The notes beneath the pieces are model-generated. The model was not told where the DNA came from and ran no database searches. It saw only the letters and a list, made by a program, of their open reading frames with translations. From positions 32,001 through 96,000 of IMG/VR virus record IMGVR_UViG_3300021091_000001: DNA of 64,000 nt, one strand, 5' to 3'. Position 1 is the stretch's first letter. The number at the start of each line of letters is the position of its first letter. Made by a program: the position numbers and the translations under genes. Positions 8,217 through 18,538 of this stretch are shown one piece after another. This DNA is from a virus. Its lineage: Duplodnaviria > Caudoviricetes.

Positions 8217-9224
8217 ATGTCCACATCCATCCTGAGCAAGTTCAACCTGTCCAGCGACCTGTTCTCTGCAATCGCAGAAAACATCGACGCTCTTCAGTCC
8301 ACTGCTCGGACTCAGTCACTTTCCGTTGGTAAGACGGTTAAGTTCACTGGTTCGATCAACGGCACCGAAGTTCCCGCCGAAGTCACGCTGCGTGAAGCTG
8401 CACTTTCTCGTCTCTCGGTTCTTCGCCAGACCAGCCCGTACTCCGGCAAAGAGTACCTGCTCGTCACTGGTGTCATGAACCCCGTAAAGCTCGATCTCAA
8501 CGTCAACATCAACGGCGAACAGATGAGCATCATCAACCTGCTTCATGTCGCAGCCAAAGATTCTGGCTCGGACATCGACCGTGCAAAGTTTGAGTCCAGC
8601 CTTGTGGCAATGGGCATGAACTTCAGCGGTGGTATGCCCTTGTTCTTCCAGCAATTTGGTGCCAACGAAGACGGTATCAAGCATGCCATCAACGCCTTCA
8701 AGACTGCAGGCGCTGTTGACGTTATGAAGACGATGACAACTCCTGGCCGTATTGTGGCAGCATACCAGCACAAGTCTGGTGTTCCTGTCAGTTCGTTCGA
8801 GCTCGGTACAACCGACCGTAGCAAGAGCCGTACTAGCCAAGGATTCTTGAACCTTGTTGATGCAGCTATTGACACTTTCCAACGCGTCTACAGTCTGCGT
8901 CTTGAGGCTCACGTCCTCACCCAAAAGATTGCAAACCTGCCTCAGGCCAAGGTCAAAGATGCCGAAGCCAAGCGCAAGGAACTCATTGACCTGTCGCGTC
9001 AATGGGTTTCCAACTGGTCTGGTAGCCAGCAGCGCATTCAGGTTGCAAAGAACAATGCTCAGACTCCTCTATCCATCTACGACCCGGTGAATGCCCCTTG
9101 TGGCCGTTTCACTCTCGAAGTGGCTGGAGAGTCGGTGGCTTGCGACCTGTGGTCAAACTCGGCACGTGCTGAGCAGACATCACAGGTAGTCACCGAAGAG
9201 GTCAACGAAGAAGACCCCTTCTGA
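8217..9224 (+). CDS. Hypothetical protein with SSB-like acidic C-tail (EEVNEEDPF)
   Basis: AAGGAG RBS, strong codon bias, 335 aa. Confidence 0.85.
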   Translation: MSTSILSKFNLSSDLFSAIAENIDALQSTARTQSLSVGKTVKFTGSINGTEVPAEVTLREAALSRLSVLRQTSPYSGKEYLLVTGVMNPVKLDLNVNINGEQMSIINLLHVAAKDSGSDIDRAKFESSLVAMGMNFSGGMPLFFQQFGANEDGIKHAINAFKTAGAVDVMKTMTTPGRIVAAYQHKSGVPVSSFELGTTDRSKSRTSQGFLNLVDAAIDTFQRVYSLRLEAHVLTQKIANLPQAKVKDAEAKRKELIDLSRQWVSNWSGSQQRIQVAKNNAQTPLSIYDPVNAPCGRFTLEVAGESVACDLWSNSARAEQTSQVVTEEVNEEDPF

Positions 9225-9281
9225 GTTAATGTCGTGGTGGGAGTTCAGGTTTCGTGATTGTGCCTGAACTCCCATCACACC

Positions 9282-9379
9282 GCATCGGTAGGTTACATCT
9301 CATCAATGCATTCAGCACGCTTTTTGACGTAGGCAATGCATCTTGAGAACAAGCGGTTCGATTCTGCTTCGATGCGCCG
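9282..9379 (+). ncRNA. tRNA-like RNA (acceptor + T arm + long central stem)
   Basis: GCATCGG/TCGATGC acceptor, AGCGG-TTCGATT-CTGCT T arm, central TCTCA/TGAGA and ATGCATT/AATGCAT helices; no anticodon arm. Confidence 0.5.
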
Positions 9380-17965: not shown

Positions 17966-18059
17966 TGGTGAACTTACTCCGTTGTCACCATTCCAAAGAA
18001 GGTAAGTCATATGCCTTCCTTTCGCTCAGCGCCAGCCTGAGTCAAATATGACAGCTGGC
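17966..18059 (+). ncRNA. Candidate multi-pseudoknot structured RNA
   Basis: Three hairpins whose loops each have a perfect 6-7 nt complement downstream. Confidence 0.45.
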
Positions 18060-18094
18060 ATTTAAATTATATTTATCCTATTAAGGAGGATAAT

Positions 18095-18379: not shown

Positions 18380-18417
18380 ACCTATTCCAGGGATGCGTCT
18401 GGATTAAAAACGCACAA

Positions 18418-18538
18418 GGAAGCGTATTCAGGAGTTTACAAAGACTCTCATTACACCTTTGGTGCTGTAAAGTTGGTGCTTTTTCACAAATGAGATCAAG
18501 TTTTTGTAAAGTGAGTTCGACTCTCACCGCTTCCACCA
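18418..18538 (+). ncRNA. tRNA-like RNA (121 nt) with encoded CCA and no anticodon arm
   Basis: GGAAGCG/CGCTTCC acceptor, GTGAG-TTCGACT-CTCAC T arm, A-CCA end, 12-bp + 6-bp central helices. Confidence 0.75.

What the first reader, a model, noticed from the sequence alone, without database searches (positions are those of the whole stretch)
18418..18538. tRNA-like RNA number 2: perfect acceptor, T arm and CCA, but a branched domain instead of D and anticodon arms
It has a 7-bp acceptor, canonical T arm and encoded ACCA. The middle 85 nt form a 12-bp helix (18435-18446/18499-18510), a 6-bp helix (18447-18452/18489-18494) and two small hairpins. It resembles a tmRNA tRNA-like domain but has no G3:U70 and no tag ORF. 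Phage T4 encodes stable tRNA-like RNAs of unknown function. Candidate roles are a decoy for tRNA-targeting defence nucleases, a synthetase or EF-Tu/SmpB ligand, or a Y-RNA-like adaptor (inference).
Basis: partly seen in the sequence, partly recalled or inferred. Interest (0 to 1): 0.7.

Follow-up and report, generated by a model that had tools for sequence, protein, structure and literature searches.

The report
Uncharged tmRNA-like mini RNA in phage
A 202-kb lake-water phage carries a real, conserved 121-base RNA gene shaped like the tRNA-like end of the ribosome-rescue RNA (tmRNA) but lacking the base pair needed to load alanine, so it most likely acts as a decoy that ties up the host's rescue protein SmpB; expression and binding are untested.

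Summary
Window 18418-18538 (+) folds as described: a 7-bp acceptor stem, 10 unpaired bases, an 18-bp bulged helix that abuts a canonical T arm, then ACCA. It is a conserved RNA gene. Two diverged relatives (L043; L002/L003) keep it, with changes on both sides at 17 of 30 pairs. The apical 36 nt and all reading frames drift.

ARAGORN and the Rfam tRNA model reject it. The only Rfam match is tmRNA, end to end but below threshold (18-25 bits against 47). It has the layout of a tRNA-like-domain-only (CDS-less) tmRNA, known from mycobacteriophage DS6A. Relatives of this phage carry such RNAs at another locus, and two pass Rfam's tmRNA cut-off. All three members of this family have A3:U70 instead of G3:U70, so alanine charging is not expected. 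They hold no conserved tag frame, and the encoded CCA is unique to the window.

Best reading (about 0.4): an uncharged TLD mimic that sequesters SmpB and dampens host trans-translation. Published work reports that TLD-only molecules inhibit tmRNA whether or not they can be charged.

Rivals are an RNase P/Z processing module, a decoy for other tRNA-binding factors, and decay. No RNA data exist. I class it as a new variant of a known kind, of moderate interest.

The parts
18394..18414 (+). Small hairpin (TGCGT / ACGCA) that ends 3 nt before the RNA's 5' end
   Evidence: Read. Kept in L043 (TGCG/CGCA) and in L044, which lacks the RNA. Equivalent hairpins with other stem sequences precede the other tRNA-like RNAs of this phage group. 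Function not known.
18418..18424 (+). Acceptor stem, 5' strand GGAAGCG (A at position 3)
   Evidence: Pair 6:67 covaries (C:G in the window and L043, U:A in L002).
18425..18434 (+). Ten unpaired bases UAUUCAGGAG, the D-loop analogue without a D stem. The AGGA is kept in all three members.
   Evidence: Aligned by Rfam's tmRNA model to its unpaired stretch between acceptor and helix 2.
18435..18452 (+). 5' strand of the long helix (12 + 6 bp), the counterpart of tmRNA helix 2 / a long variable arm
   Evidence: 7 of 12 and 4 of 6 pairs change on both sides across homologues.
18453..18488 (+). Variable apical region (36 nt), not conserved, with no conserved reading frame
   Evidence: 65% identity to L043 with indels, against 91-94% in the paired flanks. 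Unrelated sequence in L002.
18489..18510 (+). 3' strand of the long helix, with a 4-nt bulge at 18495-18498. It abuts the T arm with no spacer.
18511..18527 (+). T arm GTGAG-TTCGACT-CTCAC
   Evidence: Three of five stem pairs covary (GTGAG/CTCAC against GCAGG/CCTGC).
18528..18538 (+). Acceptor 3' strand CGCTTCC, discriminator A18535, encoded CCA
   Evidence: A73 is kept in all members. The CCA is found only in the window.

Best explanation
The element is a stand-alone gene for a stable, anticodon-less tRNA-like RNA of about 118-121 nt. It is built like the tRNA-like domain (TLD) plus helix 2 of tmRNA, that is, a CDS-less 'TLD-only' tmRNA relative. It probably lies in the + strand transcript of the neighbouring genes, since no sigma-70-type promoter or terminator flanks it. 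It would be cut out at its 5' end by host RNase P and trimmed at the 3' end like a tRNA (inferred). Because position 3:70 is A:U, host alanyl-tRNA synthetase should not charge it (established identity rule, not tested here). It keeps the stemless D-loop analogue with GG, the T loop and the helix that mimics a long variable arm. It is therefore proposed to bind host SmpB (and perhaps TrmA/TruB and EF-Tu poorly) without ever entering productive trans-translation. That would titrate SmpB and dampen tagging and degradation of phage proteins made on stalled or cleaved messages. Shown: structure, conservation, covariation, TLD-type layout, absence of alanine identity, absence of a tag frame, and TLD-only tmRNAs in relatives. 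Inferred: expression, processing, SmpB binding and inhibition of trans-translation.
For: Structure and covariation. The only Rfam family that aligns end to end is tmRNA: 18.2 bits for the window and 24.8 bits for the L002 homologue. It has 10 unpaired bases between acceptor and helix, and the helix abuts the T arm as in the tmRNA consensus. Relatives of this phage carry anticodon-less RNAs with G3:U70 and A73 at another locus, and two of them pass Rfam's tmRNA gathering score (54.6 and 47.3 bits). The known TLD-only tmRNA of phage DS6A scores 43.2 bits. [quoted passage not shown] PMC11915505 states that the DS6A form inhibits endogenous tmRNA in E. coli. A3:U70 is kept in all three members while neighbouring pairs covary, which points to selection on an uncharged form. 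The 3' strand CGCUUCC-A is the one that viral tmRNA-like RNAs pair with GGGA/GGGG 5' strands, 58 of 66 scorable loci. One G-to-A change therefore separates it from an alanine acceptor. The phage encodes no SmpB, ArfB/RF-1, Pth, Ro or CCA-adding enzyme of its own, so host factors are the likely partners.
Against: The Rfam tmRNA score is far below the gathering score, and much of it comes from the generic acceptor, T arm and ACCA. The D-loop analogue lacks the UCGAC motif of the tmRNA consensus, which DS6A and the relatives' TLDs (GUCGAC) keep, so SmpB binding may be lost. My own model R1 scores DS6A's TLD (26.5 bits), the relative L264 (28.9) and T4 tRNA-Leu (23.4) about alike, so common descent with the relatives' TLDs is not shown by score. 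The element is patchy: close relatives lack it precisely between conserved flanks (L267 against L002, L044-46 against the window). It is therefore dispensable. No expression, processing or binding data exist.
Confidence: 0.4

Rival explanations
1. A cis-acting processing module. The tRNA-like fold serves only as an RNase P / RNase Z cleavage signal that cuts the polycistronic transcript between the 94-aa gene and the downstream genes. The upstream message is left ending in a protective hairpin, and the excised RNA has no role of its own.
For: The element lies between same-strand genes with no sigma-70-type promoter or terminator beside it. A small hairpin ends 2-5 nt before the 5' end of every tRNA-like RNA in this phage group, with different stem sequences. 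The interior is free to drift. Presence or absence does not disturb the neighbours.
Against: A processing signal needs only an acceptor and T arm. Here the long helix also covaries (11 of 18 pairs change on both sides), and the unpaired AGGA and A73 are kept. The hairpin is also present where the RNA is absent (L044).
Confidence: 0.2
2. A decoy or sponge for another host factor that recognises the acceptor/T-arm half of tRNAs. Candidates are a defence toxin that cuts or modifies tRNA 3' ends or acceptor stems, a tRNA-modifying enzyme, or EF-Tu.
For: The acceptor/T-arm half is complete and under structural selection. The element is accessory, gained and lost between close relatives like a counter-defence gene. 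The phage carries many other conflict genes according to earlier notes of this scan (unchecked by me).
Against: It has no anticodon loop, so it cannot decoy anticodon nucleases, the best-known tRNA-targeting defences. The 3' end is not conserved (ACCA, ACUG, ACAC). No candidate partner was identified.
Confidence: 0.15
3. A decaying or neutral paralogue of the phage group's TLD-only tmRNA that lost alanine identity and has no function now.
For: G3:U70 is lost, the D-loop consensus is lost, it is absent from most relatives, and the Rfam score is low.
Against: Three lineages whose polymerase genes differ by 14-32% at the protein level keep all four helices through compensatory changes. The paired parts are 91-94% identical between the window and L043, against 60-65% for the interior and the downstream spacer.
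Confidence: 0.1
4. An aminoacylatable RNA with a non-alanine identity. The acceptor GGAAGYG/CRCUUCC is the type seen in bacterial tRNA-Ser and tRNA-Sec, and the helix beside the T arm could act as the long variable arm that seryl-tRNA synthetase reads. The RNA would then carry serine for a non-decoding use or soak up the synthetase.
For: A pattern built on this acceptor and T arm retrieved mostly tRNA-Sec genes from metagenomes, 75 of 97 distinct sequences. SerRS does not read the anticodon, and A3:U70 is among reported serine identity elements (my recollection of the literature, not checked here).
Against: The discriminator is A in all members, whereas tRNA-Ser and tRNA-Sec have G73 (sequences). 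There is no D arm. The relatives' versions have alanine-type acceptors.
Confidence: 0.07

Closest known systems
TLD-only (CDS-less) tmRNA of Mycobacterium phage DS6A (JN698994: 28478-28560; tmRNA Website 11587; PMC4131195, PMC11915505)
   Same: Phage-encoded and small (83 nt against 121 nt). It has a 7-bp acceptor, an unpaired D-loop analogue, one helix in place of the D and anticodon arms, a T arm UUCGAUU/UUCGACU, A73, and no tag frame or pseudoknots. It is also below Rfam's tmRNA gathering score (43.2 bits). The CCA is not needed in the gene (DS6A ends ACUA).
   Different: DS6A has G3:U70 and the GGUCGAC D-loop motif. The window's RNA has A3:U70, lacks UCGAC, has a much longer bulged helix with a 36-nt variable tip, and scores only 18 bits.
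TLD-only tmRNAs of this phage's own relatives (L316:2551-2628, 78 nt; L307:2647-2719, 73 nt; L313 122 nt; L314/L315 135 nt)
   Same: Same phage group and same architecture. The T arm of L313/L264 (GCAGG-UUCGAGU-CCUGC) is nearly identical to that of the L002 member. All have A73, and the unpaired stretches are similar (UAUGGGAAU against UAUGUAGGAU).
   Different: They sit at another locus, downstream of the 335-aa gene, where the window has its 'tRNA-like RNA 1' at 9282-9376. They carry G3:U70, and two pass Rfam's tmRNA cut-off.
Bacterial tmRNA (SsrA, Rfam RF00023)
   Same: The layout of the tRNA-like domain and the start of helix 2. Likely processing by RNase P.
   Different: The window's RNA has no pseudoknots, no mRNA-like domain, no resume codon or tag, no G3:U70, and is a third of the length.
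Phage T4 stable RNA species 1 (rnaC, AF158101: 70908-71046)
   Same: A phage stable RNA of similar size with a canonical T arm near the 3' end, closed by pairing of its two ends, no anticodon arm, and unknown function.
   Different: No sequence relationship beyond the T arm (R1 gives 20.7 bits, like ordinary tRNAs). The acceptor of rnaC is irregular. rnaC lies in a tRNA cluster, whereas this RNA is 9 kb from the nearest tRNA gene. T4 rnaD does not fold this way.

Membership tests
tmRNA / TLD-only tmRNA (RF00023) | 5' and 3' ends pair into a 7-bp acceptor stem closed by G1:C72 | tested here: met
   GGAAGCG/CGCTTCC. Kept in L043 and L002 with covariation at 6:67.
tmRNA / TLD-only tmRNA (RF00023) | G3.U70 wobble pair, the alanyl-tRNA synthetase identity element (PMC3968760) | tested here: not met
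   A3:U70 in the window, L043 and L002. Only the distant L264 has G.U.
tmRNA / TLD-only tmRNA (RF00023) | Adenosine at the discriminator position | tested here: met
   A18535. A in all homologues.
tmRNA / TLD-only tmRNA (RF00023) | T stem-loop like that of tRNA (5 bp, loop UUCRANY) | tested here: met
   GTGAG-TTCGACT-CTCAC.
tmRNA / TLD-only tmRNA (RF00023) | Reduced D loop without a stem, able to contact the T loop, carrying the GG...UCGAC consensus bound by SmpB | tested here: inconclusive
   Ten unpaired bases with a conserved AGGA are present. The UCGAC part of the Rfam consensus is absent (alignment). DS6A and L265 have GUCGAC.
tmRNA / TLD-only tmRNA (RF00023) | Helix 2 leaves the domain next to the T arm (mimic of a long variable arm) | tested here: met
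   The 18-bp bulged helix abuts the T arm with no spacer, and 11 of 18 pairs change on both sides.
tmRNA / TLD-only tmRNA (RF00023) | mRNA-like domain with resume codon, tag frame and pseudoknots (absent by definition from TLD-only forms) | tested here: not met
   Only 36 variable nucleotides lie at the tip. Frames are not conserved between members. ARAGORN tmRNA mode finds nothing.
tmRNA / TLD-only tmRNA (RF00023) | Score at or above Rfam's gathering score (47 bits) | tested here: not met
   18.2 bits. The L002 homologue scores 24.8 bits.
tmRNA / TLD-only tmRNA (RF00023) | Binds SmpB | not testable with these tools
   No RNA-protein prediction or assay is available. The phage itself has no SmpB gene.
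Canonical tRNA, including intron-containing tRNA (RF00005) | D arm and anticodon arm with a 7-nt anticodon loop | tested here: not met
   ARAGORN finds nothing, also with introns allowed. At relaxed score the calls disagree between homologues (Cys against Met). There is no RF00005 match even at E <= 10.
Class II tRNA-Ser / tRNA-Sec | G73 discriminator, D arm and anticodon arm together with a long variable arm | tested here: not met
   The acceptor GGAAGYG is of the Ser/Sec type, but the discriminator is A and there is no D or anticodon arm.
Y RNA-like YrlA (RF02553) | tRNA-like module inside a longer RNA with a Ro-binding helix, and a Ro60 (TROVE) partner | tested here: not met
   No Rfam match. 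No TROVE protein in the phage genome. The tRNA-like fold here is formed by the RNA's own ends.

The most novel reading that the evidence does not exclude
A natural 'dead' tmRNA mimic. A jumbo phage keeps a TLD-type RNA that has deliberately lost the alanine identity pair, and uses it to sequester host SmpB and switch off trans-translation. According to earlier notes of this scan (not checked by me), many essential genes of this phage need slow four-base decoding at CGGN, where paused ribosomes would otherwise be prone to message cleavage and tagging. The RNA would then be the first natural RNA inhibitor of ribosome rescue, tied to a recoding system.
Probability: 0.2. Interest if true: 0.75.

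Novelty: new variant of a known kind. Interest (0 to 1): 0.5.

Why it matters
In the papers I could read, TLD-only tmRNAs are reported from one phage (DS6A), jakobid mitochondria and a few plastids. The evidence that they inhibit trans-translation comes from expression in E. coli. This element shows that a whole group of uncultured freshwater jumbo phages carries such RNAs. At least one lineage maintains, under structural selection, a version that should be unable to accept alanine. If it binds SmpB, it would be a natural RNA inhibitor of ribosome rescue and a ready-made tool to separate SmpB binding from charging. If it does not, it marks an unknown use of the acceptor/T-arm scaffold in phages. 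It also warns annotators: neither ARAGORN nor Rfam at gathering score reports it.

Tried and rejected
- ARAGORN tRNA, tmRNA and intron modes gave nothing at default. The relaxed calls were inconsistent and I rejected them.
- Rfam at gathering score gave nothing here. The weak mir-1910, PyrC, PVT1 and mir-184 matches are chance.
- blastn against 50,697 phage records found only a 28-nt T-arm match.
- An exact 28-mer in IMG/VR had no hit.
- The 3'-half pattern found 78 loci. Most are true or TLD-only tmRNAs of other phages, not this family.
- The acceptor plus T-arm pattern in IMG/VR and metagenomes found mostly tRNA-Sec and no new member.
- The D-loop/helix pattern in IMG/VR gave 41 chance hits, none confirmed by model R1.
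- In 185,579 species genomes there was one chance hit with no fold.
- Model R1 over 25 related phage records and 20 further loci found no further member apart from the distant L264.
- Tag reading frame: the window can be read ...AVKLVLFHK-stop, but the frame is not kept in L043 or L002 and the tail is not of the usual hydrophobic type, so I rejected it. Protein-coding frames on either strand are not conserved.
- Phage-encoded partners (SmpB, RF-1/ArfB, Pth, TROVE, CCA-adding enzyme): none found.
- Expression: no RNA holder is listed for this stretch.
- Laying contigs of four lake-water DNA runs showed the same sequence, with no variant and no joint across the element, and partial cover only.
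- Mao et al. 2009 could not be read, so its result is cited only through PMC4131195 and PMC11915505.

Full report
**What is there**

The window is bases 32001-96000 of a complete 202,043-bp IMG/VR phage record with direct terminal repeats, recovered from lake-water metagenomes. At 18418-18538 on the + strand the sequence reads as follows:
- GGAAGCG, the acceptor 5' strand
- UAUUCAGGAG, ten unpaired bases
- a 12-bp helix (one G.U), stacked on a 6-bp helix, with a 4-nt bulge on the 3' side
- 36 apical nucleotides
- the 3' strands of both helices
- directly afterwards, the T arm GUGAG-UUCGACU-CUCAC
- CGCUUCC, the acceptor 3' strand
- A, then CCA

RNAfold returns this fold as the minimum-free-energy structure: -36.9 kcal/mol, z = -3.2, and 1 of 200 shuffles folds as well. 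Only the two small apical hairpins are doubtful.

**It is not an ordinary tRNA or a listed family**

- ARAGORN finds seven normal tRNAs in the window and in the whole phage, but not this element.
- With introns allowed it still finds nothing at default settings. At a relaxed score it gives contradictory anticodons in two homologues.
- Rfam at gathering score reports only the seven tRNAs.
- At a permissive threshold the one meaningful match is tmRNA (RF00023). It aligns end to end over acceptor, unpaired stretch, start of helix 2, T arm and ACCA, but at 18.2 bits against a gathering score of 47.

**It is a conserved RNA gene**

The 857-aa polymerase-like gene 700 nt downstream has many relatives. 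I fetched their loci. Two carry the element:
- L043:733-850 (polymerase 86% identical). The RNA lies in the same place, after the 94-aa gene.
- L002/L003:4676-4774 (polymerase 68% identical). The RNA lies directly upstream of the polymerase gene.

Across these sequences:
- The acceptor changes C6:G67 to U:A.
- The T stem changes GUGAG/CUCAC to GCAGG/CCUGC.
- The long helix changes at several pairs.
- The unpaired AGGA, the T loop, A73 and A3:U70 stay.

I aligned these three, plus one distant relative (L264), to a covariance model. 96.3% of cells pair and 17 of 30 pairs change on both sides. No shuffle of 500 reaches this, and sliding the partners drops pairing to 44-49%. There are only four sequences and the alignment was fitted to the model, so the figures are indicative. 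The compensatory changes are also plain by eye.

Between the window and L043, identity is as follows:

| Stretch | Identity |
|---|---|
| Paired 5' part | 91% |
| Paired 3' part | 94% |
| Apical 36 nt | 65%, with indels |
| Downstream spacer | 60% |

No reading frame on either strand is kept. The encoded CCA is peculiar to the window: the homologues end ACUG and ACAC.

**Distribution**

No further member turned up in any of these searches:
- 25 related phage records searched whole
- 20 more loci
- IMG/VR and metagenome pattern scans
- one representative genome of each of 185,579 prokaryote species

Close relatives lack the element exactly between conserved flanks:
- L267 is nearly identical to L002 on both sides, but about 98 nt are missing.
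- L044-46 go from the upstream hairpin straight to the polymerase promoter region.

The RNA is therefore an accessory cassette that is gained or lost cleanly.

**Context that explains the shape**

The Rfam tmRNA model, run over 28 related records, found short anticodon-less RNAs at another locus, downstream of the orthologue of window gene 8217-9224:

| Locus | Length | 5' strand | Rfam tmRNA score |
|---|---|---|---|
| L316:2551-2628 | 78 nt | GGGGAUG... | 54.6 bits |
| L307:2647-2719 | 73 nt | GGGGAUG... | 47.3 bits |
| L313 | 122 nt | GGGGAUG... | 26.3 bits |
| L312/L314/L315 | about 135 nt | GGGGCU... | not recorded |

All have G3.U70 and A73. These are TLD-only tmRNAs. For comparison, the published TLD-only tmRNA of mycobacteriophage DS6A scores 43.2 bits and reads GGGGCCG-CAAUGGUGGUCGAC-helix-T arm-CGGCUCC-A.

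In the window this locus is occupied by 'tRNA-like RNA 1' (9282-9376). It has the same layout but also lacks G3:U70.

The 122-nt L313/L264 RNA shares its T arm and much of its unpaired stretch with the L002 member of the present family. My model scores it (28.9 bits) only slightly above DS6A's TLD (26.5) and a T4 tRNA-Leu (23.4). A duplication origin from the locus-1 gene is therefore plausible but not shown.

The window's phage has no G3:U70 TLD anywhere.

TLD-only tmRNA-like genes of 85-110 nt with G3:U70 also occur beside tRNA genes in unrelated IMG/VR contigs, at 35-36 bits. Among viral loci that share this element's 3' half, 58 of 66 with a scorable 5' strand begin GGGA or GGGG. Eight begin GGAA, and these include ordinary tRNAs.

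**Mechanism**

The review PMC3968760 lists what defines the tmRNA TLD:
- an acceptor stem with CCA
- charging by AlaRS through G3.U70 and A73
- a tRNA-like T arm
- a reduced D loop without a stem, whose contact with the T loop is needed for SmpB binding
- helix 2 acting as a long variable arm

The element meets the architectural features and A73. It fails G3.U70. It lacks the UCGAC part of the D-loop consensus.

PMC4131195 reports, citing Mao et al. [quoted passage not shown] PMC11915505 repeats that the DS6A form inhibits endogenous tmRNA in E. coli.

The reading that fits most of the evidence is therefore an uncharged TLD mimic that binds SmpB and lowers host trans-translation. The phage has no SmpB, ArfB, Pth, Ro or CCA-adding enzyme of its own, so host proteins would be the partners.

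Earlier notes of this scan say that this phage needs four-base decoding at CGGN in many essential genes. Pausing there could make its messages targets for rescue and tagging, which would give a motive. I did not test that link.

**Rivals**

I give the decoy mechanism about 0.4. The rivals are:
- A pure RNase P/Z processing signal (0.2). It is favoured by the hairpin that ends just before every tRNA-like RNA of this group and by the lack of nearby promoters or terminators. The covarying long helix argues against it.
- A sponge for another tRNA-binding factor (0.15).
- A decaying paralogue (0.1). The compensatory changes argue against this.
- A serine-type acceptor RNA (0.07). The GGAAGYG acceptor suggests it, but A73 contradicts it.

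**What could not be done**

No RNA run holds the phage. DNA contigs from four runs added no variants. Expression, ends, charging and binding therefore remain open.

**Verdict**

This is a real, conserved, structured RNA gene. I read it as a new variant (A3:U70, long-helix form) of the known TLD-only tmRNA kind. It is not a member of tmRNA by the alanine-identity or score criteria. Interest is moderate.

Noticed in passing
window 9282-9376 (+); relatives L316:2551-2628, L307:2647-2719, L313 (122 nt), L314/L315 (135 nt): The locus downstream of the 335-aa gene (window 8217-9224) holds anticodon-less tRNA-like RNAs across the phage group. Two relatives' copies pass Rfam's tmRNA gathering score (54.6 and 47.3 bits) at only 78 and 73 nt, higher than the published DS6A TLD-only tmRNA (43.2). 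The window's copy has A3:U70 and G73.
   Followed up: partly
relatives L276, L278, L280, L287, L288, L290, L292-L294 (about 80 nt each): RNAs of the form GCGGGCGUAUCCCCUCACUCUUAUAAAGUG...GGUUCAAAUCCCGUCGCCCGCA have a CUUAUAA loop (possible anticodon UAU) but no normal D arm. ARAGORN does not call them. The window's phage has a normal tRNA-Ile(UAU) instead.
   Followed up: no
L312:3545-3612 (-), L316:309-376 (+): Pistol ribozyme (RF02679) matches well above gathering score (65.3 and 48 bits) in two related phages, near the 335-aa gene. None at gathering score in the window.
   Followed up: no
window about 17990-18062 (+); L002:4600-4672 and the same place in most relatives: A conserved pair of hairpins (GAAGG..CCTTC or CAGGT..ACCTG, then CCAGCCTG..A-rich loop..GCTGG) lies upstream of the polymerase-like gene, with compensatory changes between lineages. 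In L002 the tRNA-like RNA starts 6 nt after it. In the window the 94-aa gene lies in between. It may be a promoter or processing element of the phage.
   Followed up: no
L047:835-919, L055:436-545, L080:51-160 (unrelated IMG/VR contigs): 85-110-nt G3:U70 TLD-only tmRNA-like genes (GGGAGUGAUAAGGUAAG...CACUUCCACUAA; Rfam tmRNA 35-36 bits) sit next to tRNA genes in many other uncultured phages. The TLD-only class therefore seems far more common in phages than the single published case suggests.
   Followed up: partly
window 18394-18414; 9237-9276; L265/L266 upstream regions: Every tRNA-like RNA of this phage group is preceded, 2-5 nt before its 5' end, by a hairpin whose stem sequence differs between loci, usually followed by CAC or CAA. 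The hairpin remains in L044, where the RNA is absent.
   Followed up: no
L267, L268 (relatives): WhiB-family genes (PF02467) lie a few kb upstream of the polymerase-like gene in relatives. This suggests an actinobacterial host for this phage group.
   Followed up: no
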